Source of the DNA: Elusimicrobiota bacterium | GTDB taxonomy: Bacteria > Elusimicrobiota > UBA8919 | NCBI GenBank assembly: GCA_028718185.1 | Contig: JAQUMH010000002.1 | Coordinates: 4,088-68,087 of the forward strand | Length of the DNA stretch: 64,000 bases | Direction of reading: 5' to 3' | The notes under the pieces: generated by a model | Told to the model about the DNA's origin: nothing | Database searches by the model: none | What the model saw: the letters and a program-made list of their open reading frames with translations, nothing else | Translations under genes and position numbers: made by a program | Shown: piece by piece, positions 1,005 to 44,230 of the stretch | Layout of the letters: the number at the start of each line of letters is the position of its first letter | How positions within the stretch are numbered: the first letter of the stretch is position 1

Positions 1005-1075
1005 AAGTTTATAGAGTTTTAGAGTTATAGGGTTTTAGGGTTTTAACTCTATAACCCAATAACCCTATAACCATT
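1005..1075. repeat. tatagagttatagggtttt(t)agag repeat family, copy 1
   Basis: tatagagttttagagttatagggttttagggttttaactctataaccc. A related copy at 9440-9525 reads ttagttatagagttatagggtttttagagtttaaatcctaaaaac. Confidence 0.55.
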
Positions 1076-2150: not shown

Positions 2151-3497
2151 TTATTTACCGATTAGAATATCTCTTACTTGTAAAATCTGTATCCCTCTCT
2201 CAAGAATTTCATCTTTTGCTTTTACATTTTGAACAATTGCAGTTGATGTTACAACATTGTAAGCGTCGGGCTTACCCGCTGCAGGTGAAACAGATTTTTT
2301 ATCTTTATCTTTATCCTTTTCTTTACCTTTATCTTTAGCATTTGCAATTTCATCATCTAATTCCTGTTTCTGAAGTGCAATTTCTGTCTCGCGTGTAACA
2401 TCGATAACTATATCAGGAGTTATTCCACCCGTTTTTTTCACTGGATCTCTATGAATACTTCTCCCGGATGGCGTATAATATTTTTGAGTTGTTAGTCTAA
2501 GCGATGCTCCACCTTCAAGCGGAAGAAGCGATTGGACAGAACCCTTACCGAATGACTGCATTCCTATAATAACTGCTCTCTTGTGATCTTGCATACAACC
2601 GGCAACTATTTCAGCCCCGGATGCAGAACCCTTATTAACTAAAACAACCATAGGAACATTTGCATAAGGAGCAGTTGAATCGCTGCGGTAATCCTGTCTC
2701 GGGAACTTTCTGCCCTGGGTAAAAACAATCAATTTATTTTCACCGACAAATCTTTTACAGATATCGACAGCAGTATTCAGCAACCCGCCCGGGTCATTTC
2801 TCAAATCAAAAACAATTGACTTCATACCTTGCTTCGTTAGCTCAGAAAGCGCAATGTCTAATTCTTCGGTTGTTTTTGCGTTCATTTCAGTAACCCTAAA
2901 ATAACCTATGGTATCAGTAAGCATCTTCGCTCCTACAACCGTTACAACCGGAATATCTTCTCTCGTCAATGTTAAATCAAACGGTTCTTTATCTTTACGA
3001 AATAAAGTTATCGTTACCTTGGTGCCGGGGAGACCCCGCAATTTTTCAACTGCCTTATCTGTTGAAAGATCTTTGGCATCTTCGCCGTTAATTTTTATAA
3101 TTTTATCTTCCGGTAAAATACCCATTCTCCACGCCGGTGTCCCTGGTATAGGTGTAACTACTGTAATCCAACCGTCATTTGATTCGGATATTCTGATTCC
3201 TAAACCCCCAAAATGACCTTCTGTATGAACTTTCATCTCTTTTGCTTCAGTAGGTTCCATGAACTGAGAAAAAGGGTCAAGTGTCCTCATCATTCCGTCA
3301 GCAGCACCGTAAATAAGCTTTTTCATATCCGGCTCATCTACATAACTTTCTCTTACATATACCAGTATCTGTGATAAAATCTTTATCTGGTTATAGACGT
3401 CATCAGAAGCTGCTTTGACCATGTCATACTTTAATAATGATACTCCTATTATTAAAAATAACACCAAAACTAAAAATCCTTTCTTTTTCTTAAACAT
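2151..3497 (-). CDS. ctpA: carboxy-terminal processing peptidase, S41A family (CtpA/Prc-like) with PDZ domain
   Basis: 448 aa with a signal/TM N-terminus. PDZ region (GGLGIRI, ILPEDKIIKING), catalytic-region motifs FDLRNDPGG and VLVNKGSASGAEI, and a C-terminal K/D-rich tail. Confidence 0.85.
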   Translation of the reverse strand: MFKKKKGFLVLVLFLIIGVSLLKYDMVKAASDDVYNQIKILSQILVYVRESYVDEPDMKKLIYGAADGMMRTLDPFSQFMEPTEAKEMKVHTEGHFGGLGIRISESNDGWITVVTPIPGTPAWRMGILPEDKIIKINGEDAKDLSTDKAVEKLRGLPGTKVTITLFRKDKEPFDLTLTREDIPVVTVVGAKMLTDTIGYFRVTEMNAKTTEELDIALSELTKQGMKSIVFDLRNDPGGLLNTAVDICKRFVGENKLIVFTQGRKFPRQDYRSDSTAPYANVPMVVLVNKGSASGAEIVAGCMQDHKRAVIIGMQSFGKGSVQSLLPLEGGASLRLTTQKYYTPSGRSIHRDPVKKTGGITPDIVIDVTRETEIALQKQELDDEIANAKDKGKEKDKDKDKKSVSPAAGKPDAYNVVTSTAIVQNVKAKDEILERGIQILQVRDILIGK

Positions 3498-3588
3498 TTT
3501 ACCTCCTGTAAATTTTTACTTCAAAGCCTGTATGAAACTAATTGTCGGTCGGAGAATTTATGGGCTAATATATTTTAACCCTCATGCT

Positions 3589-3679
3589 GTCATTGCGAGC
3601 CCGCCAACGGTTCAGTGGCGGGCGTGGCAATCTCTATTTAAAAACTACGAGATTGCTTCACCTTCGGTTCGCAATGACA
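3589..3679. mobile_element. MITE-like palindromic element, canonical copy, in the ctpA/envC intergenic spacer
   Basis: gtcattgcgagc + hairpin ccgccaacggttcagtggcggg + gcaatctc, a 14-bp spacer, then gagattgc...ttcggttcgcaatgac. The terminal inverted repeats are perfect (gtcattgcga / tcgcaatgac). The same modules recur at 39700-39850, 60850-60955, 61270-61320, 44005-44230 and 35195-35225. Confidence 0.7.
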
Positions 3680-3751
3680 CCAGTAATAATCTATATTTTA
3701 ACTTCAACAACAACCTCTATTCTTAACCTTTAGTTTTGTGACCGGCTATTT

Positions 3752-5056
3752 TTACTTCAACCAGCTAAGCGGGTCCTGGGGTACACCATCTCGCCTTAAT
3801 TCAAAATATAGCGATGCATCCTGCGTATAAACTGAAATCCCTACGATACCTATGACTTCACCTTTTTGTATTTCCTGTTCTTCTTTAACCATTATTTTAT
3901 CAAGATTACCGTATATGGAATAAAACCCTCCTAAATGGTCAATAATTACCATTTTCCCATATGACTTAAACTCACCGGCAAAAACTACTTTTCCTTTATC
4001 TATTGCAATTATATTCTGACCAAGTATTGATTTTATTCTTATCCCGTTGTTAATTACCCAAGTATCCAGTTCCGGATGTTTTTGTTTGCCAAAAATTGAT
4101 GAAACATTTTTTCTTAAATCAGATGTTTCACCTTCTATAGGCCAGGATATTAAACCTTTCTTTTTCGACATTTTAATCCTGGATAACCGTTCTTCTTCTT
4201 TTTGTTTTTCTGTTTCTTTAGCTTTTTTTTCTAAAAGATCTATTAATTCAGAAAGCATCGTTTCAGAGTCTCTTAAGCTGCCAATTTCCTGTTCATAAAA
4301 AATGCGTTTCTTAACAACAGTTGAAAGAAGCTGTTTTTTATCATTTTTTTGTCTTGAATATGTTTGTTCTGAAATACCTTTCTTTAATTCAAGATTTTTC
4401 AGTTCTTCCATCCCGCTTTCAAGTTTAATTTTAAGTGATTCATATTTGTTTACATTTTTTGCTGTTTGAAGATAAACGAACGATTTTTGTCTTGCTAAAA
4501 GCTGCAAGAATTTATAACGTTTTACCAAATCAGCCGATGAATTCGAAGAAAGCAATATCCTTGCCGAATATTCATCAGTAACCGGTCTTCCTACTCCCTG
4601 GATATATGCAAACCTTATCTCGTTTCTTAGCGTATCTTTCCACTTAATCATTTCTTTCTTTGTTATTTCTAACTTAATTTTTAAACCGTCTATAGATTTT
4701 TGCTGTTGAGCAATCAATATTTTTGTTTTTTGTAATTCAATTTTTGTTGATTCAAGGTTTCTTAGAATATTTTCAAGTTGTGATTCTATTGACGCTTCCT
4801 TTTTTTTTATAATTTTTACATTATCTTCTTTTTTAGAAATTTCTGTTTTAACCCCGGTCAGCTCTTTTTTACTCTTTTTTATTTTCTGTTTATATTCTTT
4901 TATCTGTTTATCATAATTATCAGCATAAGTATAACAAATACAAGAAAAAGCAATTATACTGAAATAAATAATCCCCGCTAAAACCTTCATGAATTGATTT
5001 TCAGTTTGCCGTTTTAAGCCTATTATTTTCTTTTTATTGTTTTTTTGAAAAAACAT
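3752..5056 (-). CDS. envC: EnvC-like murein hydrolase activator: N-terminal coiled coil plus C-terminal M23/LytM peptidase domain
   Basis: 434 aa. An N-terminal TM/signal is followed by about 300 aa of heptad-rich coiled coil and a C-terminal M23 fold (GIRIKS...VVFAGEF.SYGKMVIIDHLGGFYSIYGNL). It overlaps the ftsX stop, which suggests an operon. Confidence 0.75.
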   Translation of the reverse strand: MFFQKNNKKKIIGLKRQTENQFMKVLAGIIYFSIIAFSCICYTYADNYDKQIKEYKQKIKKSKKELTGVKTEISKKEDNVKIIKKKEASIESQLENILRNLESTKIELQKTKILIAQQQKSIDGLKIKLEITKKEMIKWKDTLRNEIRFAYIQGVGRPVTDEYSARILLSSNSSADLVKRYKFLQLLARQKSFVYLQTAKNVNKYESLKIKLESGMEELKNLELKKGISEQTYSRQKNDKKQLLSTVVKKRIFYEQEIGSLRDSETMLSELIDLLEKKAKETEKQKEEERLSRIKMSKKKGLISWPIEGETSDLRKNVSSIFGKQKHPELDTWVINNGIRIKSILGQNIIAIDKGKVVFAGEFKSYGKMVIIDHLGGFYSIYGNLDKIMVKEEQEIQKGEVIGIVGISVYTQDASLYFELRRDGVPQDPLSWLK

Positions 5057-20397: not shown

Positions 20398-23300
20398 TCA
20401 TTTTATCAGTCCTACCTTCCCGGTCTTCTTCCTGCCTGTAGCGTCTCTTATCTGATAAATATATACTCCTCTGGCTACTTTGTCTCCATCGTCATTCTTG
20501 CCATCCCACTCAAGCCAGCCAAGATTACCAAAGTCTGCCTCTTTGAGTTCCCTTGCCAATTCACCGGATACAGTGTATATCTTCATTTCACTGTTTATAG
20601 GCAGGTTTATTACCTTTAACTTACCACCTACCGCCATGTTAGGTTTATATGGGTTAGGATATACTTTCACATTACTCAGGTCTGTCGCAAGATAACTGCC
20701 CAATATACGATATGTTGTGAATCGTTTCACATTCGCTGTTATTGTCTTGTTTAGCTTGTCTACTATATGTACTCCAGGCACCAATTCCCACTCCCTACCG
20801 TTCCATGAATATATCCTTAATCCTTCTTCCTTTAATTCACCTATATCCACTAACGTGTATGGGATTGTTATGCTTATCGGCTTTGTAAATATATCTTCTT
20901 CCAATACCGATGTCTTATTTGTAAATGACAATCTTCCAAAATCATAACTTATGGGTTTCACGGTATCTACATATCTCGCTGCGTTTCTTACTACCGCCGG
21001 CGTCTTTGTCTTTATCACTGCCAAATTCCTGGTTTCTGTCAATACGTTTTCGCTCACTATTATCTTTAGTTTGTTTACTCCTTTTATCATTCCGCCATTG
21101 TTTCCTATTGGTTTTGCAAGATACATATCGTTGATATTTGTCAGGGTAGGCAACATGCTGTCTCCGGTAACTGATACTGTCTCTATTTCACTATTGAATG
21201 GTATTGATATCTCCCTTTCTCCTGTATCTTCTTTTGTCAGTATTGCGTCTGCAACGTTCAATATACCGGTTTTTGAGTTCTTTGTTGATAGTGTTAGTGT
21301 CCCGCTGTAATCCGTTGTGGGGTTATTGTCATTTGTATTGTATACTTGTGCTTTGAATTTCAAGCTTGATACTGTTATAGCTGGGTCTAATGACGCTGTA
21401 TCTAATGTCGGTCCGTCTTCGTAGTAATATGACTTTAAGGTGTTACTGTACTTTATAATAGGTTTTGGTGGTGTAGCGAGTCCTGTTACTGTCTCAAGAC
21501 GAACATCATCTATGTAATATGTATCGCCTGCAGTCGCATATGGCGTAAACCAGAACCGGAAACGTCCATCGGTTACCGGAGCTGTAAAGCCTGTGGTGAT
21601 AAATTCGGTAGTAAATGTCTGCCAGCTTGTGCCAAGGTTCGCTGTGTAATTCAAACCGTAGTCTGTGTATGGGGTCCCATGCTTTAACAAGTGTACTGTT
21701 ACGGCATGTCTGGTTGGCGAATAGGCTGTAAATATCAATCTATATCTGGTATTAGGGTTAAGGCAAATTCCTGTCTGGTATAATTGGATGTTACCATTGG
21801 CAGCGGTTATTGTACATTTGGCGGATTTGGCTCCTTCAAAACCTGGTGTTGTGCTAATAAATGTGCCTCCGCCACCTGCATAATATGCCCAGGAATCTGT
21901 ACCTGATTCAAAGCCGGCATTTATAACATGATTTGTGCCGGAAGAAGTGCTTAGTGTGCTGAACGTATAATTTTCGCTTGTTGCTATATTGCCGGAACCA
22001 TCTTTACTTGTTACATGGTAATAATATGTAGTACCTAACGTTAAGCCGGTTATGTTAACGCTATGGCTTGTTACTTTTGTTGTATCTGATGTCGTTGAAA
22101 TACCATATAGTGTTGTTGTACTGTACTCTACCTGTGAATCGCTTGGTTCATTGGTGAGCCAATTTATTACTGCGGAATTCCAGGTTATATTGCTGGATGT
22201 AACGCTCGTTATTATGGGCGGGGTTGTATCAGGTGGGACTGTTTCAAGGTGTATATCGTCTACGTAATACACATCACCTGCTGCTGCATATGGGGCATAC
22301 CACAACATTAAACGGGCATCAGTAACAACAGACGAAAATCCGGTTGTTACAAATTCGGTGGAATATGTCTGCCAGCTTGTGGTCAGGTTCGCCAAATAAT
22401 TATCCAAACCATAATTGGTATATGGGGTGCCGTGTTTGAACACGCGCACTGTCATATCATGTCCTGTATTGGAATAGGCTGTAAATGTTAATTTATATCT
22501 GGTATTCGGATTAAGGCAAATTCCTGTCTGGTATAACTGGATGTTACCGGTGGATTTGGTTATTGTACATCTGGCGGACTTGCTACCTTCAAAACCGGGT
22601 GATGTGGTAACAAACGAGCCTGCTTCTTCGGTATAAAAAGCCCAGGATGTTGTGCCTGATTCAAAACTATGATTACTTATGAAATTTATGTCGCTTGTAA
22701 ACGTATTGTCTTCGCTTGTTGAAAAATTACCTGATTCATCTCTGCTGCTTACCCTGTAATGATATACTGTACCAGGCATTAATCCTGTTATATTAGCACT
22801 GTGATTTGTTAACTTAACTGTACTTAACACTGTTGAGTTTCCATATGATGTTGTTAGTCCGTACTCCACCTGCGAATCGCTTGGTTCATTGGTTATCCAA
22901 TTTACTAATGCGGAATTCCAGGTTATATCGCAGGATGTAACGCTCACTATTATTGGCGGGGTTGTATCAGGTGGAACTGTCTCAAGATGTACATCGTCTA
23001 CGTAATACACATCTCCTGCTACTGCATATGGCGCATACCAGAACATTAAACGGGCATCAGTAACTACAGACGAAAATCCGGTTGTTACAAATTCGGTGGA
23101 AAATGTTTGCCAGGTTGTGGTCAGGTTCGCCAAATAATTACTTAATCCGTAGTTGGTATATGGGGTGCCGTGCTTGAACACGTGCAATGTCATATCACGG
23201 CCTGTATTGGAATATGCTGTAAATGTTAATCTATATCTGGTATTCGGATTAAGAACGATATCTTTTTGGTATAACTGGAGGTTACCGGTGGATTTGATTA

Positions 23301-26300
23301 TTGTACATCTGGCAGACTTGCTACCATCAAAACCAGGTGATGTGGTAACAAACGAGCCTGCTTCTTCCGTATAAAATGTCCAGGATGATGTGCCTAATTC
23401 AAAACTATGATTACTTATGAAATTTATGTCGCTTGTAAACGAATTATCTTCACTTGTTGCAAGATTACCTGCTGTATCTTTACTCTTTACCCTATAATGA
23501 TATACCGTACCTGATGTTAATCCGGTTATATTAACGCTATGATTTGTTACCTTAACTGTATCTAACACTGATGAGTTACCATATGATGTCGTTAGTCCGT
23601 ACTCCACCTGTGAATCACTTGGTTCATTGGTTAACCAATTTATTACTGCGGAATTCCAAGTTATATCGCTGGATGCAACATTCGTCATTATCGGCGGGGT
23701 TGTATCACTCATCACTTCAAACTCTGTTGTTGCAGATGAAGCATTACCTGCTAAATCAATAATATTTACTTTGCAAGTGTATGTACCGGAAGAAACATTT
23801 TGCCCAATTGTATTTTTGCCATCCCACTCACAACTATAATTTCCAGCAGGTACAGCCAAATTACTTATAAGGGCTCTTGTTAGTACATCATTATTGTAAA
23901 TTTCAACATTTATTACCGATTCTTTAGATAGAACAAATGAAATTTCTGATTTAATCCTTGCACCATCTGGTGATATTACTGCAGCAGATACCGATAAATT
24001 AGTTATCTGTGGTAAAGTGGTATCTCTTGTTATTGATGTTATTTTTGATTTAGGGCTATCAAACGGAATATTATTAAACCACCTCGTCGTTTTTGCAAAT
24101 ATTGGATTTGCTCCTTCTGAAAGCGAAATTTCTGCTGAAAATCTGCCATTACTATCTGCTTTTACTGTCTTCAAACTAGCACCGTCATTATATACTGTTA
24201 CATCTGCAACAGCTTCTACTACGCCTGTAATTGTTATATATTGCTGGTTTGTTATTGTTGATATATTTGCGTCAAATTCAGGTATTGGCACTTGTGGGAT
24301 TATTAAATACTGCGAAAATCCTACTACTTCACAACTTACTTCAAAAATATCGTTCTTCCCTGATGCATCTTTTTTCCACCCTAAACTTGTTAGTGTTGTT
24401 GGTTTTACTTTGCCATTACTGTCGACATGATATGCAGTGAGTTTTCCTATATCTACATTTGTAACTTCTTCAGGTAAAAATCGCACTGTTAAAACAGCAG
24501 GAGCAACTAATTTACCATTTCCATCTTTATTAAATTGTATATCTTTTGGTTCCATATCAAATAACGCACCAAGAGGCAGAGGCATACCTGTATCAACAAT
24601 AATATCTGTATCTGACAATTTTACTGGTGTTATGCTTACAGTGGTTGGTTGTAATAATGAATCAGTGTAAAATTCTAAATATGCTTTGTTCCATGGTGCT
24701 GATACATATTTATGTTCGCCAGGAAATACTTGTTTACCAACATATACTGTTTGCTCTATTTCTTTTACACCATTACCGGCAAATACATATAACTTTATTT
24801 TGTACTCTCCATTAAGTCCTGATACATCCCAAAATGATAGTGTATTATTTGAAACAGGTTGAGTGGATATTACCGGTATGGTTTTCAATATTGTATCGCC
24901 TGTCTTTTGATAGAACATTGAATATCCCTTAAAATCACTCCCAAACGCACTACCTTTTATCTCAACAAATCTTTTTGGTGCCGCTTCATCTGTTGATATT
25001 TTTACGGTAAAGTCGTCATTAATATCATTACTATCTGTGTTTGATGCTTTGGTAAGTTTCTTATCCACTACCAAATCATTACACATAGTGCCGTCTGGAT
25101 ATTGCAATTTTATGTCCCATTGTTTTTGAGTATCATAATTATCTGCATCAATCCACACATAAGGATTGTCTATAGTAGTTCCATTTTGTTTCCAAAAAGT
25201 ATATTTGTTTTTAATTTCATCGGGGTTATTCATATTTACCAAAGGATATGCTGCAGAAATCGTTATTGGTCTATATCGGTCAGCAACTGTTGGTTCAAAA
25301 GGTCCTTCTATTACAAAATCTGCTTGAAGATTATTACCACTATTATTAAATTCATTATTTTTACTAATGATCTTATGTTCTGGCAATCCTTGGTCATCTG
25401 TTGTCATATCCCATGATTCTTTCTCGTTGGTTGTCGCTTTTAATTCTAAAAGACCTCTTTCTTCTACTATTGTTTTAAGGACTTTAGGATTTGTTTGAGT
25501 CACAAATGTATAAGGAGATGATGACGGAATATAGTCATACGGTATTCTTATTTCTTCAATTGAATTGTAAGTATCGTGCCCATTATAACAAGTATTATTT
25601 ACAGTTACTGAAGGTTCGTAATTTGCATTTATTTTTACTTCACGTAAAACAGGAGTTTTACTTCCATCATTTGTAGATAAAGTTGCTTTCCATCTGATGT
25701 ATTTTCTTGGTGTTGAGTAAATTGGCTGACCAGGGGTTGCTGTTCTTTCAGATTCCCAACTATATCCATCATCACTCGTTTGAGTCGTATAAGTGATATT
25801 CGTTCCTGAAGGTTTGTATTCAGATACCTCAAAATTTCTCCAAGACGATGGTGCTGTTTTACAATCGTGTGCTTGAGAAATAAGTGTTCCAACTAAACCA
25901 AAATTCTGAGTGACATTGTATATTACTGGAGTTGTTTGTAAATCACGAGTAGCAAAATCTGCCCTCCATTTAAAATACCGTTTCTGACCAAGTGATGGCA
26001 CTACTCCATTTTCCACTATTGGGGCGGCTTCCCAGTTAATATTTTCTCCAGAACTATTGTAGCTTGCAATCCTATATGTTATGTGAGCCCCTCCTAAATA
26101 ACCTACATTATTTTCATCACTCGTTTGAAATAAGTTCCAAATTGGTGAATAAGAATATGTATCATGTTCTTGTGAAATAAACACACCTGTATTTTCATAT
26201 CGTTTTTGGTATCCCTCTATACTATTAAGAAATAAATATGCACCATGATTTGAATTGTGGGGCTGCACAAGGATCTTAAAATATGGTGCATAAAATGGTG

Positions 26301-29300
26301 TGGGAACTTCTTCATCAAATGAAATATTTATACTAGAACCATGAGAAACTACCTGACTCCAATACTTGTAAGTTGTCCATGGGCCATTTGAACTATTGCC
26401 GTATTGCAAGTAGATATTAGCACCACAATTATTTCCATCTTTATGCCATACAGCAACACTTCCTACTACCCGTAATCTATAAAATTTATAATGCCATGGA
26501 TATATAGGTGGTACACCTTGAGGAGGTCCTGAACGACCACAAACAAACGCCCAAGTGTTTCCATACCCAGCCCATGCAGGCCAGACAAGAGTACTATCAT
26601 TTCTATCATTTGCATTTGTCCAAGATGAACTAGGAGCAAGCGGATAATTACCCGAAATATCATCGTATTGTTCATGTATTGCATCCACAACATATTGACT
26701 AAACTGAACTTTATTATCAGCAATTATAAGAGTAGGTGTTTTTTGCCCATTATAAAAAGTAGAAATATCATCATATTTTTTGGTACATATCTTAACATTA
26801 CCCGACTCTGAATTTAGGTCAATATTACTTATGCCTCCTTGTCCAAAATCTTGTTGTGATGTTTGTATCCACGACTGTGCAGCATGTGTTTGCACAGTAG
26901 CAGAAAATGATTGCGGTGAATAATATTCCCCCTTTTTTACAGTTGCGGACCAGTTGAAATTAGAAGACCCTTGATTAACTGAATATGGTGCTGGTGAAGT
27001 AATTTCTGCTAACCCACTTCCTGGTCCTCCAATAACTGCAATTGAAACTGACGCGGAACCTTTTGTCTGGTCATCTACTGCAATAACATCTATCTTGCAA
27101 GTATATAACCCTTCTACAATACTACTCCAGACTGTTGTATACTCTGTCAACCCAGATGTAAATTCATTATCAACCATCTTTACAAGATTACCTACTGTAT
27201 CATAAATAGTAATATATACTGTAGCTGCTTTTGTCAGTTCATATGTAATTTGGACTGGTTCATTTAACAAGACATCTGATTTGTCTGATTCAAATTTTGT
27301 AATCTTTAGTGGTTCTGTTATGGTTACATTTACATTTACACTAACAGATTTCTTATCCATCCCGAGACCGTCTATATCTACTGCTGTTAATTGTATCCTG
27401 TAAATCCCATTTTGCACATACTGTTTTCTAAAATCCTTACCATCCCACTGTATTGTTTCACCAGCAGTTTTATTAAAATATTCTGAATGTAAAATTACCG
27501 GACCAAATGTGTTGACATCAACCATCTTAAAAATATCCAGTACCACATTTGACTTTTTGCCGGTATTCTGCATTAAAGTATATGAGATATTCAATTTATC
27601 ATTTATTGTGGTTATATTAAACACCTGGTCAGAAATAGGTGCTGTGATATTAAGTATCGGCTTGTCAGTTTCTGGAATTGTATTGTCCACTTTTACCGAT
27701 ACTGTTATTGCACTGTAGTTTGATGGCATAGCACTATCCTGTGCAACCAATAAAATTGTATAGGTACCATTTGGTAAAGATGATACATCCCAATACGCTA
27801 ATGTTGAATTTAGTATTGCTCTGTATGATGCATTAGAATTTGGATAATTTACATCATTTGGACTTTGATTTGACACAGGTACTGGTATCGATTTCCATAC
27901 ATTCATATCTGGACTTATGTAATTGTCTGGTGTCGCATTACTATAAGTAGCATACCATACTTTGTAACACAAAAAGTCAATATTATCATTTACTACTGGA
28001 TCTATTGCTATACCAACTATTTCTACTTGATTACCAACTATGCCATTAAATACTGGTGACACTATTTGGGCAGGTATCTGATTTTTTATTACATTTACCG
28101 TCTCTTCTGCTTTATTTCCTACTTCATCTGTTGTCTTTATTTTTATAACATAACTTCCATCACTTGCAAAACTGTTATCTTGTTTCTTTCCATCCCATGT
28201 ATAGGAATATAACACATCTTTTTGTTTTACCTCGGATATTGGACTTCGGACTATCTGTCCTAATATATCTTCAACAGCTACCTCTACTGTTGCATTATCA
28301 CTTATCTTATAATATGCTGTTACAGTATCATTTTTAAGTTCTGGATTAAATATTTGTATATTTGTGTAAAGTGTGGTTACAAATGACGGTGTTCTATCTA
28401 TCTTAAATGTTTGCAATATTGGAATCGTATTGCCTATATTTCCAGATTCATCTGTTGCTTTTAATCCTAATGTATACTCTCCATCAGACGCAGTATTCCC
28501 CAACGCATCTGTCCCATCCCAAGCATATAGAAGATTTTGTGTTATATTCGGTGTAACTACAAAATCTGTTACTTTTGTAAACAATCTTGTTCCTGATGTA
28601 AAAGTAAAACTCACCTTTGCTGATGGTGAAAATCTATCAAATATATCAAATGATATATCTACACTTTTATCATTTTTAGTAAAAATATTATGGGAATAAG
28701 CACCAGGATTTATATATATACTGCCATTTGATACCTGTGGTGGTGTTATGTCTACAATTATATCGCCTTCATATACCTTTAAGTTCTCTGCCTCATCAAC
28801 TGCTGTTATTTTACATTTGTAAATCCCTTCTGCTACTACTACCCCATTGGTATTTTTACCATCCCATATATCTAAATTTGCCCCTATATTCTTTGAAATA
28901 CTATCAATAAGTGTTCTTACTAAATTATTCTGTAAGTCATATATTTTTATTGTTGTTTTAATCACTGTTGAGAAATTATCCGATAAAGTATAATCTATCG
29001 TTGTTGCCTCTTTTATTCCATCACCATTAGGTGAGAATGCAAGACAGGAATAACTCGTTATATCTGGTGGAGTTATATCGTATCTCAACGTAACTGTTGC
29101 ATTTTTAGTGTAGTCAGTATTTCCAGCATTATCTTTAAGCCAGATATATAATATATTATTCCCTTCAACAACAGAGAAATTGGAAGTAAATGTTTGAGTA
29201 TTAGGAATATAATTTGCAGGTTCCGTATTTAACTTATAATATGCTCCTGCTATTCCTGATAAATCAGAAGGAGTTGACCATGATATGGTAAATTGTGTCT

Positions 29301-32300
29301 GGTTTGTCCAACCGGATGGTGAAACAGATAAAGATTGTGGTTTATCTGGCGGGGTCGTATCTACTATTATTCCATCACTGCTAACCGGGGTCTCGGAACC
29401 AGCTCCATTTTTCGCTTTCACTGTAAAATAATAAATACCGTCATCTAAAGGTGAATCAAATGTCCTAGTTATATTACTAAGTGTTCCTGTTGATGTTAAA
29501 GCGATAATATTATACCATCCAGTATTCGGATATTGTGATGTTCCTATTGCATATTGATATTCCACAATTCCAGAGATATCCTCGGTAAAACTCCAATTAC
29601 AAGAAAGTTGTGTGTTATTGTTTGTATATAACCCATCATTAATTGATACACACATTGGCGAAGTTGTATCAATCATTACACTGCCTCCTGTTAGCCATGC
29701 ACTCCATCTACCTGCCCCATTTTGAGCACGAACTTTTGCAAAATATGATTGACCATGAATAAGACCATCTACAGTATAATTTGTTTGACTATTTGGAACA
29801 TCTGCTTGTGCTATTAGGCTATCTGTGATGCTATTATAAATTGCAATATTAAAATTAGATATACCACTTTCCATATCGGTAGCAAAATCGCCTTCCCATG
29901 TAAATGTTACTGTTGTAGAAGAGGAATAGGCACCTCCTGCAAATCTTGGTGCCTTTGCAGGACCACTAGGCATTTCTGGGTCTGTTGTATCAAGATAAAT
30001 TTCATCCTTTATTTCTACTATAGAAATATTTCCTGCTTTATCTTTATATCTCGCCCATACCGTTTTATTACCTGCTCCTGCTGTCAACCACCAAGGAGAA
30101 TAAATATGTGTATACTCAATCCAATCTCCAATAAAAATTATTCCATCATAAGAAAACTGCATCCAACCAACTTCACTATTATCTGAAACTGTGGAATACA
30201 AACTAACTTGCTGACTACCTGTAAAATTTTCTAACGGTGCAAATGTATCTCTAATAAGTAAACTTCCAATCGGTGGGGTAACATCAATCATAAACTCTTT
30301 ACCAATAGTTGGTGTAACATTTGTAGCAATATTCTCTCCAATATCTTTTCCACTTATGGTAACGGAAACCATTCCTTCAACACCAGGACCAGAAACAATA
30401 TTTACTTCACCTTTATACACATTCCCTGATACAAGTATGGTTGCTACTTCTGTTTTATCATTCACAGTACCAGGAGCATCTATACTGAATGTTGGGTTGG
30501 CAGATAATTGTTCACTTGCAGTTATTTTTAGATAAATTGTTTGTGCTTTAGTTATTGGCTTTCCTGTATAAGTTGCTAATGGTTGTGTAAGATTTGAATC
30601 TGCAAAATATTCTACTGTGAAATTTGGTGGTATCATTGCTATTAAAGAGTAATCTAAATTATTAGCAAAAGCGTCTGTATTGCTTGGTATAACAATAACT
30701 TTGGAACAAGTTGTATCAAAATTGGAAATGGATACGGTATTACCAGTTTTATTTAAATCATTTTGTTCTTCTATAGTGCCATCCATTTTAACTTTCAACA
30801 CTTTGCCACCCCATAATGGTGTAACTACTGATGAATCAAAATTAAGGAGAAGCGTTTGTGGAGTTGGTTTATCAGGTGCTGGACGAAATTCAAAATAGTG
30901 ACTTGCAAGATGCATAACAGTATTAACTCCTGATGGGTATTGGTATTTAGCAGAAGTATCTAAAACTGTTATCTTCGGATAAGAATTACCTTCAATATAA
31001 TATTTAGAAGCATCATAATTCCAAACAGTAAATGTCTTAAATTCATTAGATAAACTTGTTCCATGACCTGATATTAATTCGCTATCAATTGCCGACAAAG
31101 AATCGGTAGTTTTACATATATCCCAAATCTGGCGAATTATATCTTTCTCATTAAATCTCTCGGAAAAATATTTTGCAAAAATACAGGAACCGTATTCATT
31201 CCAATCATTTATATAATCCAATGATTGAGTAGAATTTGCAAACCAAGATGGCTTTCCAGCAAATCCTTTAAGATATTGTAAATAGTCATTTACATTAGGA
31301 TAAATTTCATCTTCCATCCAGACAGATGTAGCTTCATTCCACCAATAATTATCATCTCTTGGATTATAACTACATTTAACAGCATGAAAAAACTCATGGG
31401 CGGAGGTAATCTGCATAGCATCTGTACCATGTGTATAAAATTTATCACCAATATAATCATTGTCTACCTGAATTATAGAACCTAAAATTGGATGTTTATA
31501 TGCAGTGCTTCCATATGCGCCATTTCCTAAATTTAAAATATAAACAGGTAATTTATTTTCAATTACAAAATATTCTGATGGTGGAGATTCATAACCATAT
31601 GAACCAGGTTTCACTATTTGGTTCCAACTATATTCAAAATACTGTCCAAAATTATATACATAATCGGGAATACCATTGTGTGATTGCCAACCTGCTGAAT
31701 TGACCTGATTAACATCAGGATTTGAAATTGTATATGCTCTAAAATGAAACTTAAAATTAGTGGTTTTATAAACGCCGTAAGTGTAATATACATCTTTTAT
31801 ATTGCTAACATTACCAGCAACATCCCACACTTGTATCATTATATGATTTATTCCTTGGCGAAGATTAATATTATCAAACGATTTAGTATCATTTGTGCCA
31901 TTTACGTATTGTTCTTTTGCTGGTCCTATTTCTGGTATTACCACTATTTTTTCCAATTGAATCGTATCTGACACAGTAACATTTATTGTTATTGTTTCAT
32001 TTTCTCCTTGATTTTGGTCAGGAGGATTAAATGAGACCACGGTAGGTTTAGTTTCATCAAGTATAATGGAAGTGGAAACAAAGGATGATATATTACCTGC
32101 ATAATCTTTAACTCTAAAATATATTGTTTTTGCACCTTCGCCAGTAGAATTAATATAATAAGATTTTGATATAGAATAATCTTCCCAAGTTGATGGCCAA
32201 TTATTAGAATCCTCAGTAAATTGCATTTTCGCCACACCGGAAGTTGCATCACTTGCTAATAACGCTAATGTAATAATTCTATTATTAGTAAATCCCGTAC

Positions 32301-34260: not shown

Positions 34261-35262
34261 TCACTCGCTTCCAAAACTATAACCAATTGATACTCTTTGG
34301 TTTGGGTTAAGTGTTTCAACCAAACCAATCCCATAATCAACTTTTAATCCTTTCATTTGGAAACCTGCGCCAAGAGTAACCTTATCAATATCATATCCTA
34401 CTTTATAGCCAAATCGCAGAAATACTGTTTCTTTGAAACTATACTCAATACCAATGTTTTCCCTTATATTACTTTCATTTGGTTTAACTGTGTCAATGGC
34501 AATCAAAAAACTGTGATTTTGTAATACCGTTTTATTATATGCTATTCCTAACCTTATGTTCATAGGAAGTGCGTCTCCCTGTTCAATGTACTTCAGTTTT
34601 GTCCCTACATTTTGAACAGCAAGTCCTGTTGAAAGTCCATCAACGGTTGTATAATATAAAATACCAAAATCCACTGCATATGCAGTCCCTGAATATGTTT
34701 CTACAAGTTTGGATGAAAGATACTTTGCAGTTAACCCTAATGAAAAATTATTGAAAATTTCTTTGCCATAACCTATTGTTCCAACTATATCCTGCTGTGC
34801 TTTAACATTCCTTGAAGTACCATCAAGATTATTCCATTCAAAATTACCACCATCATAATAAAGAAAACTTGCTCCAAAACTGCCTATTCCATTTGATGGC
34901 GTTCCTACCCATCCAACTAAACCGTAATTTTCATCTACTCTGCCTTTTAAATACATACTCGCTATTTCATTACCTTCTATATTTACCAAACCTGCCGGGT
35001 TATAATAAAGTGCATTTGTGTCATCACATACAGCAACAAACGCTTCACCCATACCTACAGTTCTGGCACTTACTGTCTGATTTAAAATCCTTGCACCGGA
35101 GGTACCAGAACCAGCATAAAGACAGGAAGTAGGGAGTAGGAAGTAGGAAGTGGTAAAGGCAATAAATAAAACCAGAGATTGCCACGAGCCAATTGACATC
35201 GGCTCTCGCAATGACTTCCTTTCTAAAATTTCTCTAAACATAACACACATCCTAAACATCAA
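34261..35262 (-). CDS. outer-membrane beta-barrel protein, PorP/SprF-like (type IX secretion cargo-attachment family); true start probably internal
   Basis: 333 aa. Signal peptide, then LYYNPAGLV (NPAxaG-type motif near the N-terminus), alternating amphipathic beta-strand pattern, aromatic C-terminus. The size fits PorP/SprF. It lies between two CTD-bearing cargo genes. The 5' end overlaps a MITE fragment and ggaagtagg direct repeats, so MSIGSW... may be the true start. Confidence 0.45.
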   Translation of the reverse strand: MMFRMCVMFREILERKSLREPMSIGSWQSLVLFIAFTTSYFLLPTSCLYAGSGTSGARILNQTVSARTVGMGEAFVAVCDDTNALYYNPAGLVNIEGNEIASMYLKGRVDENYGLVGWVGTPSNGIGSFGASFLYYDGGNFEWNNLDGTSRNVKAQQDIVGTIGYGKEIFNNFSLGLTAKYLSSKLVETYSGTAYAVDFGILYYTTVDGLSTGLAVQNVGTKLKYIEQGDALPMNIRLGIAYNKTVLQNHSFLIAIDTVKPNESNIRENIGIEYSFKETVFLRFGYKVGYDIDKVTLGAGFQMKGLKVDYGIGLVETLNPNQRVSIGYSFGSE

Positions 35263-39244: not shown

Positions 39245-40285
39245 CTATTGTTTGTATTTTTTAGGTAGGCAGAACTTTTCTATAAAAGTGATTTTTTGTT
39301 CTTTTGTGAAATATTTTAGGAGTTTTTTTAAGCGTTTTTCAACAGGTTCTTGTTTTGGAGAGATTGCTGAGATATTCAAACTATTATCAATGATTTTCAA
39401 AATACCCCGCTTTTTAAATTCTTCCAGGATTTTTTTGGCTTTTTGTTCTTCCAGTGCTTTTACAAATTCATCCCTTATACGCGGTGCTGAAACCAGTGTT
39501 AGCAAGTTTCTCTTTATTGCAGATATCATCCATTTTTCTGTATTTTTTTCAAGCTTAAAACCAAAACGATGAGCATACCTTATTGCCCTTAGAATTCTGG
39601 TTGGGTCATCTATAAAACTGTTACTATGAAGCACACGAATTTGTTTTTTTTTAATGTCTTCTAAACCACCGTGTAAATCAATAATGTTATTAATTGCCAA
39701 GTTAGATTGCTTCGTCGCTCTGCTCCTCGCAATGACTACACTCTTTTTGTCATCGCGAACCGAAGGTAAAACAATCTCATAAACTTTGAAATTCCTAAAC
39801 ATCAAGTTAGATTCCCACTTTAGTGGGAATGATGAATCTTGGGAAAGCGGAAAGGCGAGGGCGTTGATTGTGAAATCACGGCGGAATAAATCGCTTTTCA
39901 AATTAGACGGGAAAACAATCGGCATTGAAGCGGGGGTTGGGTATTTTTCTGTTCTTGCTGTTGCAATGTCAATTACAAAACCATTTTTTAGCTTAAGGGA
40001 TGCTGTTAAGAATTTTTTATATATGTTAAGTTTTCCGCCGAGTTTTCCATGAATAACTTTTGCAACAGCTAATCCATCACCTTCTACCACCAAATCCAAA
40101 TCAATACTTTTTAGACCTAATACTTTATCACGAACATATCCGCCAACAATATAAATTTTACAATTAAATTGTTTTTCTGTTTTTCTTATAATTTCTACAT
40201 AATTATTGATTTTATTAAACCCCATATAAAACTCAGTCCTACTACAAGAATGGCAGAACCAATTATTGAACCTATTGTCAAACAT
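39245..40285 (-). CDS. cca: tRNA nucleotidyltransferase / poly(A) polymerase family (CCA-adding enzyme head domain) carrying an in-frame repeat-element insertion
   Basis: GGYVRDKVLG and RRDFTINALA motifs are present. About 50 extra residues sit between NALA and IIDLHGGLED. The likely true start is MGFNK (about 40225). The 5' end overlaps the downstream-oriented gene 40195-40659. Confidence 0.7.
   Translation of the reverse strand: MFDNRFNNWFCHSCSRTEFYMGFNKINNYVEIIRKTEKQFNCKIYIVGGYVRDKVLGLKSIDLDLVVEGDGLAVAKVIHGKLGGKLNIYKKFLTASLKLKNGFVIDIATARTEKYPTPASMPIVFPSNLKSDLFRRDFTINALAFPLSQDSSFPLKWESNLMFRNFKVYEIVLPSVRDDKKSVVIARSRATKQSNLAINNIIDLHGGLEDIKKKQIRVLHSNSFIDDPTRILRAIRYAHRFGFKLEKNTEKWMISAIKRNLLTLVSAPRIRDEFVKALEEQKAKKILEEFKKRGILKIIDNSLNISAISPKQEPVEKRLKKLLKYFTKEQKITFIEKFCLPKKYKQ
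39695..39855. mobile_element. MITE copy inserted in-frame inside the cca coding sequence
   Basis: The insert carries the modules catcaagttagattcccactttagtgggaatga (cf. 44054-44088), gagattgttttaccttcggttcgcgatgac and gtcattgcgaggagcagagcgacgaagcaatct (cf. 3589-3679, 60920-60953). It is translated as FPLSQDSSFPLKWESNLMFRNFKVYEIVLPSVRDDKKSVVIARSRATKQSNLA without a stop. Confidence 0.65.
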
Positions 40286-42680: not shown

Positions 42681-42787
42681 TTTAATATACGCGAAACTGA
42701 CCTGCCTACCGGCAGGTAGGCGCTAAATGTTTTACGCCTGTTTTGCGCTCCTCTTTACCTCTTTGTTATCCACTAAGCTCCTAATCG

Positions 42788-42910
42788 AAGAGCGAAGAAG
42801 TTGTTGAGCAGAACTTCACGGAGTTCCGCTTAAAACATTCAGCGGAACGAGTGAGAGTGCCCCGACGTAACGTCGGGGACAACGGTTCTGTGAGACAAGC
42901 TCCCGAACGG
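42788..42910. repeat. about 130-bp conserved structured element, copy 2, upstream of the pilT paralog
   Basis: See copy 1. The variable hairpin ccccgacgtaacgtcgggg sits at 42860-42878. Confidence 0.6.
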
Positions 42911-44004: not shown

Positions 44005-44230
44005 AAATTAGGCACGCCAAGGGCGTGCTACTACAAACATTGATATTCTTATTCATCAAGATAGATTCCCACTTTCGTGGGAATGACACGCCATGATAGA
44101 TTGTCATTCCCGAGTGTCTCAATCGGGAATCCACAACATCGAAATTCTTATGCATCAAGTTATGCCCGCCACTGAACCGTTGGCGGGCAACGACAAAAAC
44201 ATTGTAGTGGCAGAGCTTTGCAACTATATT
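44005..44230. repeat. mosaic of at least five palindromic repeat modules in the pilT / DUF2851 spacer
   Basis: ggcacgccaagggcgtgctactaca (44010-44034); catcaagatagattcccactttcgtgggaatgaca (44054-44088); tgtcattcccgagtgtctcaatcgggaat (44102-44130); gcccgccactgaaccgttggcgggc (44163-44187, reverse complement of the hairpin in the 3589-3679 MITE); cattgtagtggcagagctttgc (44200-44221). Confidence 0.7.

What the first reader, a model, noticed from the sequence alone, without database searches (positions are those of the whole stretch)
3589..3679. Canonical 91-bp MITE with perfect terminal inverted repeats and an internal GC hairpin
This is the simplest copy of a modular palindromic family that recurs at least five times in 64 kb: 3589-3679, 35195-35225, 39695-39855, 44102-44190 and 60850-61330. 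The TIRs are gtcattgcga / tcgcaatgac, the inner inverted pair is gcaatctc / gagattgc, and the hairpin is ccgccaacggttcagtggcggg. That density is high for a chromosome and implies recent activity. The internal hairpin is itself exchanged between copies: its reverse complement appears at 44163-44187.
Basis: seen in the sequence. Interest (0 to 1): 0.55.

Follow-up and report, generated by a model that had tools for sequence, protein, structure and literature searches.

The report
Hairpin repeat pair of Ssn nuclease
The 91-bp "MITE" is a back-to-back pair of short hairpin repeats from a family already described (CGTC-tagged REPs, also called Ssn-related motifs, like Neisseria dRS3/NTS), and the gene for its partner single-strand DNA nuclease lies in the same window, so this is a new example of a known system.

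Summary
The sequence features are real and far beyond chance. The repeating unit is not the 91-bp block. It is a 26-49 nt hairpin: an unpaired (T/C)GTC tag, a stem that starts with AT, a variable core, then AT and C(TC). The window holds 12 such units. They occur singly, as pairs in both relative orientations, and as a three-unit cluster.

The 3589-3678 element is a tags-outward pair of two different units. One GIY-YIG gene (60949-61236, minus strand, 95 aa) lies between two units in the same arrangement. Its product is 40% identical, without gaps, to the Neisseria SsnA orthologue, and the three catalytic residues align.

The family therefore matches the CGTC-tagged REPs of Di Nocera et al. 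2013. It also matches the Ssn-related motifs with Ssn single-strand DNA nuclease of Chenal et al. 2025.

Independent tests here:
- 48 of 74 metagenomic homologues carry units on both sides.
- A covariance model built only from foreign copies recovers 8 window units.
- There is no target-site duplication and no transposase.

The classical MITE reading is rejected. A gene-less derivative of the repeat-ssn-repeat module remains possible.

Three units lie in frame inside a CCA-type nucleotidyltransferase gene, adding 44 residues.

Verdict: a new member of a known kind, of modest interest.

The parts
3589..3634 (+). Repeat unit (ATTGCGA type), left arm of the 91-bp element. It reads GTC-ATTGC-GAG-[CCCGCC..GGCGGG hairpin core]-CGTG-GCAAT-CTC.
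   Evidence: Covariance model R1 scores 38.3 bits, E = 9e-7. DNA fold is -13.6 kcal/mol, z = -3.4.
3635..3648 (.). 14-nt spacer (tatttaaaaactac) between the two arms. This is the position occupied by the ssn gene in the gene-carrying module.
   Evidence: Compared with 60917-61313 and with L036, L039, L082 and L099.
3649..3678 (-). Repeat unit (ATTGCGA type), right arm. Its core ACCGAAGGT differs from the left arm, so the pair is a heterodimer.
   Evidence: R1 scores 39.2 bits, E = 6e-7. It is 81% alike over 43 nt with the unit at 39748-39790.
35175..35215 (-). Single repeat unit, 71 nt downstream of the stop codon of ORF 35286-38510.
   Evidence: R1 E = 1.6e-5. Fold z = -3.1.
39703..39736 (-). 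Repeat unit inside the coding sequence of the CCA-type nucleotidyltransferase. It encodes part of VVIARSRATKQSNL.
   Evidence: R1 scores 39.4 bits, E = 5e-7.
39749..39778 (+). Repeat unit inside the same coding sequence, partly decayed (GTCATCGCGA..ACAATCTC).
   Evidence: R1 E = 6e-4. It has no stable fold.
39808..39833 (-). Repeat unit of the ATTCCC type inside the same coding sequence. Its tag has decayed to ATC. It fits the dRS3 pattern ATTCCC-N8-GGGAAT.
   Evidence: 23 of 28 positions match the Neisseria NTS consensus. Fold z = -4.7.
39707..39838 (-). 132-nt (44-codon) in-frame insertion made of the three units above plus their spacers. It lies in ORF 39245-40225, between the RRDFTINALA motif and the IIDxxGG motif.
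   Evidence: Alignment with 8 closest homologues of 277-281 aa, none of which has the insertion. Pfam domains PolyA_pol and PolyA_pol_RNAbd lie on either side.
44062..44087 (-). Repeat unit of the ATTCCC (NTS-like) type, TGTCATTCCCACGAAAGTGGGAATCTA. The 26-mer is identical to a copy beside ssnA in Neisseria gonorrhoeae.
   Evidence: 24 of 28 positions match the NTS consensus; exact 26-mer in L202 at 1056-1081. Fold z = -4.8.
44102..44132 (+). Repeat unit of the ATTCCC type. It forms a tags-inward pair with the unit at 44062-44087.
   Evidence: Fold z = -4.8. R1 scores 11.4 bits.
44151..44192 (-). Degenerate unit (GTCGTTG-CCCGCC..GGCGGG-CATAAC). It carries the same 25-nt core as the unit at 3589-3634, in the same orientation relative to the tag.
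   Evidence: (repeat I13).
60858..60906 (-). Repeat unit with a long core and a variant tag-side stem (GTCATTGTGA). It lies outside the ssn module.
   Evidence: R1 E = 1.5e-3.
60917..60950 (+). Repeat unit flanking the 3' end of the ssn gene. The TGA stop codon of ssn overlaps the GAGATTGC end of the unit.
   Evidence: R1 E = 2.6e-5. In many metagenomic loci the downstream unit also starts directly after the ssn stop codon.
60949..61236 (-). ssn homologue: a single-domain GIY-YIG nuclease of 95 aa with Y8, Y19 and E66.
   Evidence: Pfam PF01541, E = 3e-16. It is 40% identical over 90 aa with no gaps, E = 2e-28, to the 94-aa N. gonorrhoeae orthologue of SsnA. It is the only copy in the window.
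61239..61246 (-). Orphan half-site (GCAATCTC on the minus strand) directly upstream of the ssn start codon.
   Evidence: No partner tag was found, so it is treated as a remnant (inference).
61286..61313 (-). Repeat unit flanking the 5' side of ssn. Together with 60917-60950 it bounds a 397-bp repeat-ssn-repeat module with the tags pointing outward.
   Evidence: R1 scores 38 bits, E = 1e-6. Module sizes in 41 metagenomic loci range from 342 to 644 bp.

Best explanation
The 3589-3678 element is a tags-outward pair of two different hairpin repeat units. The units belong to the family described as CGTC/TGTC-tagged REPs, also called Ssn-related motifs (SRM); Neisseria dRS3/NTS is the founding case.

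Each unit has an unpaired (T/C)GTC tag, a stem that begins with AT, a freely variable upper stem-loop (the core), the closing AT, and then C(TC).

The partner protein is the small single-domain GIY-YIG nuclease Ssn. It is encoded once in the window (60949-61236) and sits between two such units in the same outward arrangement.

How it most likely works, with shown and inferred steps kept apart:
- Shown for four other species in PMC11893778, inferred here: when the DNA is single-stranded, as in replication, repair or DNA uptake, a unit folds into its hairpin. Ssn binds it in one orientation only and cuts a few nucleotides 5' of the GTC tag.
- Shown here: in the outward pair each strand carries one forward unit, so the two predicted cut sites lie just outside the two ends of the pair.
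- Not shown anywhere: how units and pairs multiply. The 91-bp pair has the same architecture as the repeat-ssn-repeat module with the gene replaced by 14 nt. It is therefore best read as a gene-less relative of that module (REPIN-like), not as a DDE-type MITE.
For: (1) Unit anatomy. Eight window units fit GTC-AT-xyz...z'y'x'-AT-C exactly. That compares with 2.1 +/- 1.4, maximum 6, in 200 shuffles.

(2) Independent model. Covariance model R1 was built only from 70 units of other organisms. It finds 8 window units at E = 5e-7 to 1.5e-3 and the three ATTCCC-type units at 11-14 bits. Neisseria NTS copies score the same 11-15 bits.

(3) Upper stem. It covaries across those 70 units: covariation score 0.233, against 0.076 in shuffles (0 of 500 reach it) and 0.02-0.10 when the 3' partners are slid.

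(4) Determinants mapped in Neisseria. The three bases before the palindrome matter for cleavage and the C just after it matters for binding (PMC11893778). Both are present in the window units as GTC and C. The ATTCCC-type units match the NTS consensus at 24 of 28 and 23 of 28 positions, with a compensatory G-C to A-T change. One 26-mer is identical to a copy beside N. gonorrhoeae ssnA.

(5) The protein. It is 95 aa and consists of a GIY-YIG domain only. It is 40% identical without gaps to the 94-aa Neisseria orthologue (E = 2e-28). Y8, Y19 and E66 align with the Y6, Y17 and E64 mutated in the paper.

(6) Gene-repeat association.
- All 4 GIY-YIG genes found among the 120 pattern-selected genome loci sit directly between outward units.
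- Of 74 evaluable metagenomic homologues, 48 have units on both sides, 19 on one side and 7 on neither.
- Unit density is 6.6 per kb within 200 nt of the gene, against 0.32 per kb farther away.

(7) Variable core. The paper shows that loop identity is dispensable and that extensions at the loop are tolerated. This explains the 'modular' cores.
Against: - The published degenerate SRM search string gives 0 matches in the window. The ATTGCGA-type unit has a 5-bp basal stem plus an internal loop, not the continuous 8-9 bp stem of NTS/CGTC REPs.
- Several ATTGCGA-type units fold no better than shuffles as isolated single-stranded DNA, with z near 0.
- No biochemistry exists for this protein or for this unit type.
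- The ssn gene here is flanked by ATTGCGA-type units only. Which nuclease, if any, serves the three ATTCCC-type units is unknown.
- The CDD assignment that defines the family in the paper (cd10448) could not be run.
Confidence: 0.85

Rival explanations
1. It is a classical MITE: a deletion derivative of a DDE-transposase insertion sequence, moved by cut-and-paste through its terminal inverted repeats.
For: There is an 11-bp perfect terminal inverted repeat, the element is small, several related copies exist, and most lie between genes.
Against: - No target-site duplication exists at 3588/3679. Across 41 gene-carrying modules the median longest shared flank word is 7 nt, against 6 in the control.
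- No transposase is present among the window genes.
- The two arms differ internally, and no second copy of the whole 91-bp block exists.
- Units also stand alone and in the inverse pair orientation.
Confidence: 0.04
2. The units act mainly at the RNA level, as 3'-UTR hairpins that terminate transcription or stabilise upstream mRNAs. This role has been proposed for REPs.
For: The intergenic copies lie 39-73 nt downstream of the stop codon of the upstream co-directional gene. PMC3733652 reports the same placement for CGTC REPs. The hairpins are stable.
Against: - No terminator-like site was found at 3300-4000 and there is no T run after the stems.
- Units occur on both strands and inside a coding sequence.
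- Rfam gives no meaningful match.
- Neisseria SsnA does not bind the RNA form.

This role is not exclusive of the main explanation and could be a secondary effect.
Confidence: 0.08
3. It is a REP/REPIN of the GTAG class, mobilised by a RAYT (an IS200/IS605-type Y1 transposase).
For: It shares the inverted pair of hairpin units with a short spacer, and a gene flanked by inverted units. Both are typical of REPIN-RAYT systems (abstracts listed).
Against: The tag is GTC, not GTAG. The flanked gene is a GIY-YIG nuclease, not a Y1 HUH transposase. No Y1 transposase is present in the window.
Confidence: 0.01

Closest known systems
Ssn-related motifs (SRM; Neisseria NTS/dRS3) with the Ssn single-strand DNA nuclease family (Chenal et al., Nat Commun 2025, PMC11893778)
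   Same: - The unit has an oriented hairpin repeat with a (C/T)GTC tag, an AT-start palindrome and a C after the palindrome.
- The partner is a GIY-YIG-only protein of about 94 aa, 40% identical to the Neisseria orthologue, with aligned catalytic residues.
- The gene sits between two repeats.
- The loop or core is variable.
- Two window units match NTS at 23-24 of 28 positions and fit the dRS3 pattern exactly.
   Different: - The dominant unit type here (GTCATTGCGAG...GCAATCTC) has a 5-bp basal stem, an internal loop and a variable upper hairpin.
- That unit type is not found by the published SRM search string.
- The host is an uncultured Elusimicrobia genome.
- Its biological role is unknown. 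In Neisseria the system limits transformation by repeat-bearing DNA.
CGTC-tagged REP super-family (Di Nocera et al., BMC Genomics 2013, PMC3733652), which includes Neisseria dRS3 and Rickettsia RPE-4/RPE-6
   Same: - The terminal tag is CGTC or TGTC.
- Stems start with complementary A and T.
- Pairs are mostly of unlike units.
- Copies are placed after the 3' ends of co-directional genes.
- Copies and clusters occasionally lie in frame inside genes.
   Different: - That paper describes 8-9 bp stems, 4-5 nt loops and a CCA tail. Only the ATTCCC-type units here fit the stem and loop sizes, and the tail here is CTC or CTA.
- The paper found no dedicated enzyme. The GIY-YIG partner is evident here.
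REPIN-RAYT systems (Bertels and Rainey 2011; Nunvar et al. 2010)
   Same: The system shares inverted pairs of hairpin units with a spacer, a single-copy gene flanked by the same units, no target duplication, and action on single-stranded DNA hairpins.
   Different: - The enzyme has a different fold (GIY-YIG against HUH Y1).
- The tag differs (GTC against GTAG).
- The two arms are usually unlike each other, so the pair does not form one long perfect hairpin.
Rickettsia palindromic elements (RPE) inserted in frame in protein genes (Ogata et al. 2000; cited from my own knowledge and through PMC3733652)
   Same: Palindromic repeat units are inserted in frame in a housekeeping gene and add a peptide segment (44 aa here) while the reading frame stays open.
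   Different: The host phylum differs. Here a cluster of three units of two types forms the insert, and expression and function of the decorated protein are untested.
Bacterial MITEs such as the Correia element
   Same: The element is small, has terminal inverted repeats, is present in multiple copies and lies between genes.
   Different: It has no target-site duplication and no DDE transposase relative. The repeating unit is a single hairpin rather than the whole element.

Membership tests
Ssn-related motif (SRM / NTS) repeats | An unpaired (C/T)GTC lies directly 5' of the palindrome. These bases govern cleavage in Neisseria. | tested here: met
   Eleven of the 12 units carry GTC, preceded by T or A, and one decayed intragenic unit has ATC. 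The role of these bases is taken from PMC11893778.
Ssn-related motif (SRM / NTS) repeats | A C lies immediately 3' of the palindrome. This base is critical for binding in Neisseria. | tested here: met
   All canonical units end ...AAT-C(TC/TA).
Ssn-related motif (SRM / NTS) repeats | The unit is a 20-50 nt inverted repeat that can form a hairpin. | tested here: met
   Units are 26-49 nt. The basal stem ATTGC/GCAAT or ATTCCC/GGGAAT is present. Upper-stem covariation is 0.233, against 0.076 in shuffles. Six units fold with z from -2.5 to -4.8, but six fold no better than shuffles.
Ssn-related motif (SRM / NTS) repeats | The unit matches the published degenerate search string HGTCWY-N(0-2)-YYVSBRH-N(0-5)-WNVSBRG-N(0-2)-RNCYNB. 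| tested here: not met
   The window has 0 matches, against 0.06 in shuffles. The string was hand-built from 29 genomes of 4 phyla and is a search aid rather than a definition. The ATTGCGA type fails at the YY positions. The ATTCCC type fails at one S position, because of a compensated G-C to A-T change.
Ssn-related motif (SRM / NTS) repeats | The repeats flank an ssn gene on both sides. | tested here: met
   In the window, units at 60917-60950 and 61286-61313 surround ssn. Among metagenomic homologues, 48 of 74 have units on both sides. The paper reports 42% on both sides with its own motif.
Ssn-related motif (SRM / NTS) repeats | The unit is bound and cut by its cognate Ssn as single-stranded DNA, in one orientation only. 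| not testable with these tools
   This needs purified protein and oligonucleotide assays.
[quoted passage not shown] | The protein is a single-domain GIY-YIG protein of about 94 aa with no DNA-binding extension. | tested here: met
   It is 95 aa, and PF01541 covers residues 5-77 with no other domain.
[quoted passage not shown] | The sequence is homologous to characterised SsnA, including the catalytic Tyr, Tyr and Glu. | tested here: met
   It is 40% identical over 90 aa with no gaps, E = 2e-28, to the 94-aa N. gonorrhoeae orthologue, which lies among NTS copies. Y8/Y19/E66 align with Y6/Y17/E64. By contrast the UPF0213 structure 1zg2 matches only at E = 0.003.
[quoted passage not shown] | The best CDD hit is cd10448. 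| not testable with these tools
   No CDD library is available here.
CGTC-tagged REP super-family (Di Nocera 2013) | The unit has a CGTC/TGTC tag, a stem of 8-9 bp starting with A-T and T-A pairs, a loop of 4-5 nt and a 3-nt tail. | tested here: inconclusive
   The tag and the AT start are met by all units. Of the three ATTCCC-type units, two have 8-bp stems with 4-nt loops, and 44102-44132 has an 8-bp stem with a longer core. The ATTGCGA-type units have a 5-bp basal stem, an internal loop and a variable upper stem. The tail is CTC or CTA, not CCA (one search gives the definition).
MITE (non-autonomous DDE-type transposon) | Target-site duplication flanks the element. | tested here: not met
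   The flanks are catgct|...|accagt at 3588/3679. No recurrent flank duplication was seen at 41 modules.
MITE (non-autonomous DDE-type transposon) | Several near-identical copies of the whole element exist, together with an autonomous relative that encodes a transposase with the same ends. | tested here: not met
   No second copy of the 91-bp block exists in the window. The only gene with the same ends encodes a GIY-YIG nuclease that has not been shown to transpose.
REPIN / RAYT | The unit carries a GTAG tag and is associated with a Y1 (HUH) transposase gene. | tested here: not met
   The tag is GTC. No Y1 transposase is present among the annotated window genes.

The most novel reading that the evidence does not exclude
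The repeat-ssn-repeat module is an active, horizontally spreading mobile element that uses a GIY-YIG single-strand nuclease in place of a transposase. Gene-less outward pairs such as 3589-3678 are its non-autonomous derivatives, a GIY-YIG counterpart of the REPIN-RAYT relation.

- Ssn homologues from Patescibacteria, Ignavibacteria, Deltaproteobacteria, Brocadia and Firmicutes are 68-72% identical to the Elusimicrobia protein.
- A housekeeping enzyme from the same window is only 52-62% identical within Elusimicrobia and 35-45% identical outside the phylum.
- The same 18 end bases recur across phyla.
- Modules are compact, at 342-644 bp.
- Units have entered a coding sequence in frame.
- One module (L039) is flanked by a 94-bp direct duplication.

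Chenal et al. raise the insertion-sequence analogy only as a hypothesis.
Probability: 0.3. Interest if true: 0.65.

Novelty: new member of a known kind. Interest (0 to 1): 0.3.

Why it matters
The finding adds no new kind of element, but it does three useful things.

- It places an uncultured Elusimicrobia genome among the repeat-rich carriers of the Ssn system. The window has 12 units in 64 kb.
- It shows that the commonest unit type in environmental genomes (GTCATTGCGAG...GCAATCTC) escapes the published SRM search string. Censuses based on that string will therefore under-count.
- It gives a clean case of three units inserted in frame into a tRNA nucleotidyltransferase-type gene.

If Ssn modules prove to be mobile, pairs like this one would be their miniature derivatives. 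New Ssn and repeat pairs are also candidate reagents for site-specific cutting of single-stranded DNA.

Tried and rejected
- Literature search by raw sequence words returned only primer noise.
- Searches pairing GIY-YIG with palindromic, repetitive, REPIN or RAYT terms returned fungal mitochondrial or RAYT papers with no link. COG2827, UPF0213 and YhbQ also led nowhere. The link came from dRS3/CGTC combined with GIY-YIG.
- Rfam gave nothing at gathering thresholds for the whole window. At E <= 1 around the element it gave only a chance-level NsiR4 match of 16 bits, against a threshold of 40.
- The UPF0213/YhbQ family was considered for the protein and rejected. Its only solved relative, 1zg2, matches at E = 0.003, and NCBIfam gave no family above its cut-off.
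- The exact 95-aa protein is not on record. The 100-aa version is found only on a 1.1-kb Logan contig, which is uninformative.
- The published SRM string gave 0 hits.
- The search for target-site duplications was negative.
- The terminator scan was negative.
- The paper's supplementary tables are not held, so the Neisseria reference protein was recovered instead from a N. gonorrhoeae chromosome mislabelled as a plasmid in PLSDB.
- For the genome-wide pattern scan, my own estimate is about 540 chance single matches in 596 Gb. Single hits are therefore not evidence, and only multi-unit loci and the covariance-model results were used.
Full report
**1. What is in the sequence**

- The terminal inverted repeat is 11 bp (3588-3598 and 3669-3679).
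- The inner pair lies at 3627-3634 and 3649-3656.
- The GC hairpin lies at 3601-3622, with an exact reverse-complement copy at 44165-44186. The identity extends to 25 nt.

All three motifs are far more frequent than in dinucleotide-preserving shuffles. The 99-nt region folds as single-stranded DNA at -27.6 kcal/mol, z = -6.2.

**2. The real repeating unit**

Reading all the claimed copies side by side shows that the recurring object is not the 91-bp block. It is a unit of 26-49 nt. Written from its tagged end, the unit is:
- (T/C)GTC;
- AT plus three or more stem bases;
- a variable core;
- the complementary stem bases plus AT;
- C(TC).

Two stem types occur in the window. The ATTGC...GCAAT type has nine units, one of them degenerate. 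The ATTCCC...GGGAAT type has three units.

Units stand in several arrangements:
- alone (35175-35215);
- as a tags-outward pair (3589-3678, and around a gene at 60917-61313);
- as tags-inward pairs (39703/39749, 44062/44102, 60858/60917);
- as a three-unit cluster (39703-39833).

The two arms of the 3589-3678 pair have unrelated cores. The pair is therefore two independent hairpins rather than one long palindrome.

The 'exchanged' GC hairpin sits in the variable core slot. It has the same orientation relative to the tag in both copies, and the second copy simply lies on the other strand.

Some spacers are themselves repeated: 39781-39832 and 44035-44086 are 87% alike. This gives a mosaic like the Neisseria intergenic mosaic elements.

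**3.

The region 60949-61236 on the minus strand encodes a 95-aa protein that is a GIY-YIG domain and nothing else (Pfam E = 3e-16).
- It lies between units 60917-60950 and 61286-61313, whose tags point outward.
- Its TGA stop codon overlaps the end of the downstream unit.
- This is the architecture of 3589-3678, with the 14-nt spacer replaced by a gene.
- It is the only such gene in the window.
- None of the other roughly 40 genes annotated is a transposase.

**4. Copies elsewhere**

The hits come from Chloroflexota, Planctomycetota, Desulfobacterota, Proteobacteria, Nitrospirota, Bacillota, Bacteroidota, Patescibacteria, Cyanobacteria, Omnitrophota and others.

By my own estimate, roughly 540 single matches could arise by chance in 596 Gb, so single hits prove nothing. 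However:
- 75 of the 120 loci carry two or more strict units.
- Adjacent pairs are 49 tags-outward, 12 tags-inward and 14 direct.
- 46 of the 49 outward pairs have unlike arms.

The 3589-3678 form is the typical pair.

**5. Gene-repeat association, tested both ways**

Among the 120 pattern-selected loci, four hold a homologue of the GIY-YIG protein. In all four the gene lies directly between outward units. L099 uses the stem variants TCT/AGA and CCT/AGG, which shows compensated stem changes.

The reverse test used 80 metagenomic loci chosen only by protein similarity. Results:
- 74 loci had enough flank to judge.
- 48 had strict units on both sides, 19 on one side and 7 on neither.
- Unit density was 6.6 per kb within 200 nt of the gene and 0.32 per kb farther away.

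Module length from tag to tag is 342-644 bp. The flanks show no recurrent direct duplication.

**6. Structure**

In an alignment of 70 units from other organisms, the three inner basal-stem pairs are complementary by construction of my search. The upper stem was not imposed. It shows many double changes, with a covariation score of 0.233. Shuffles give 0.076 (0 of 500 reach the observed value), and slid partners give 0.02-0.10.

Many cores are GCGAAGC-like. From my own knowledge, this is a very stable DNA mini-hairpin motif.

Covariance model R1, built from these foreign units alone, finds 8 window units at E = 5e-7 to 1.5e-3. It scores the three ATTCCC-type units at 11-14 bits.

**7. Identification**

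A literature search led first to Di Nocera et al. 2013 (PMC3733652). They defined a CGTC-tagged REP super-family with these properties:
- the tag may also be TGTC;
- stems start with complementary A and T;
- units mostly occur in pairs, often of unlike units;
- copies lie after the 3' ends of co-directional genes and are sometimes intragenic;
- the super-family includes Neisseria dRS3 and Rickettsia RPE-4 and RPE-6;
- it has 'no dedicated transposase'.

The search then led to Chenal et al. 2025 (PMC11893778). Their findings:
- Such repeats (NTS in Neisseria, SRM in general) flank the gene for a 94-aa single-domain GIY-YIG protein, SsnA.
- SsnA binds the hairpin only as single-stranded DNA, in one orientation.
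- It cuts a few nucleotides upstream.
- The three bases before the palindrome govern cutting, and the C after the palindrome governs binding.
- Loop identity is dispensable.
- In N. meningitidis the system lowers transformation by NTS-bearing DNA.

**8. Membership tests**

Protein. A tblastn search of PLSDB found a N. gonorrhoeae chromosome filed as a plasmid.
- The matched ORF is 94 aa with Y6, Y17 and E64, as in the paper, and it lies among NTS copies.
- The window protein aligns to it at 40% identity over 90 residues without gaps, E = 2e-28. Y8, Y19 and E66 align with the catalytic residues.

Repeats.
- The GTC tag, the AT start and the C after the palindrome are all present.
- The ATTCCC-type units match the NTS consensus at 24 of 28 and 23 of 28 positions, and they fit the dRS3 pattern exactly.
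- The 26-mer at 44062-44087 is identical to a copy next to gonococcal ssnA.
- R1 scores the Neisseria copies like the window's ATTCCC units.

One test failed. The published degenerate SRM string finds nothing in the window. The ATTGCGA type has a 5-bp basal stem, an internal loop and a variable upper hairpin, which that string does not allow. I treat the string as a search aid, not as a defining feature, and I record the failure.

**9. Mechanism**

Shown here:
- the anatomy of the units;
- the association between the units and the ssn gene;
- the homology of the protein to the Neisseria SsnA orthologue;
- the absence of a target-site duplication.

Taken from the paper and inferred for this organism: the protein recognises the hairpin in single-stranded DNA and cuts 5' of the tag.

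It follows that in an outward pair the two predicted cuts fall just outside the pair, one on each strand.

How units multiply is unknown. The authors themselves offer only the insertion-sequence analogy as a hypothesis.

A role as an RNA 3'-end hairpin remains possible as a side effect. It is not supported by a terminator scan.

**10. The intragenic cluster**

The window comes from an Elusimicrobia MAG (names).

ORF 39245-40225 encodes a 326-aa CCA-type nucleotidyltransferase.
- Its eight closest homologues are 277-281 aa and 57-62% identical by BLASTP.
- They all lack a 44-residue segment, DSSFPLKW...SRATKQ.
- That segment is encoded by 39707-39838, which consists of the three units and their spacers.
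- It lies in frame, without a stop codon, between the RRDFTINALA and IIDxxGG motifs.

The units there are partly decayed. This parallels the Rickettsia palindromic elements and the intragenic CGTC clusters of 43-82 aa reported in PMC3733652.

**11. Verdict**

It is wrong about the class, because this is not a DDE-type MITE, and it gives no evidence of a recent burst.

The system is already described. This is a new member in a new host, with a unit type that the published search string misses. Interest is modest.

The most novel reading still open is that repeat-ssn-repeat modules are mobile and spread horizontally. Cross-phylum protein identity of 68-72% supports this reading, since a housekeeping enzyme from the same window is only 52-62% identical within the phylum. 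I put that reading at about 0.3.

Noticed in passing
window 54213-54283, 56152-56246, 58432-58462: Tandem 8-nt repeats (GGGATTGT, 4 to about 9 copies) lie inside the coding sequence of three adjacent paralogous TMEM260-like/TPR glycosyltransferase genes. They encode segments such as PTIPQSHNPT. Because the period is not a multiple of 3, slippage would shift the reading frame, so these are possible phase-variation sites.
   Followed up: partly
window 12797-12878 and 42780-42861 (minus strand): An 82-nt repeat, 95% identical between its two copies, lies upstream of a GlgE-like gene (10833-12737) and a PilT/T2SSE-type ATPase gene (41586-42680). Similarity extends further upstream (cgggagcttgt...). 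Rfam has no match even at E <= 1, so it may be a shared leader or regulatory RNA.
   Followed up: partly
window 1006-1072, 35124-35151, 56014-56040, 62029-62059, 62100-62133: Short tandem arrays of 7-8 nt units (AGTTTTAG, AGGAAGT, GAGTAAC, GTCCGAA, GACATTG) lie in or near intergenic regions close to gene starts. Similar arrays flank the ssn module in locus L099.
   Followed up: no
window 20398-32976: A giant ORF of 4192 aa on the minus strand has internal tandem repeats of about 738-753 nt (21488-23737, 72-78% alike).
   Followed up: no
window 44062-44087 and L202 1056-1081: A 26-nt repeat unit (TAGATTCCCACTTTCGTGGGAATGAC) is identical between this Elusimicrobia window and a copy next to ssnA in Neisseria gonorrhoeae.
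   Followed up: partly
window 39781-39807, 44035-44061, 44134-44160: The spacer next to three units is itself a repeated module (AAACWTTGAWATTCYTA..CATCAAG). This gives a mosaic organisation reminiscent of the Neisseria intergenic mosaic elements.
   Followed up: partly
L039 4900-4993 and 5461-5553: A 94-bp direct duplication of flanking DNA brackets a repeat-ssn-repeat module in a Planctomycetota MAG. It could be a clue to how the module inserts, or an assembly artefact. It was not seen at 41 other modules.
   Followed up: partly
L082 about 2700-2865: In this locus the ssn homologue is split by a palindromic insert of about 165 bp with its own terminal inverted repeats (gttacaaaactattt...). 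This is a different small element inserted inside ssn.
   Followed up: no
PLSDB records NZ_CP119140.1 and NZ_CP119142.1: These 2.17-Mb Neisseria gonorrhoeae 'plasmid' records are evidently chromosomes and carry almost no annotation. That made them useful here, but they are mislabelled.
   Followed up: no
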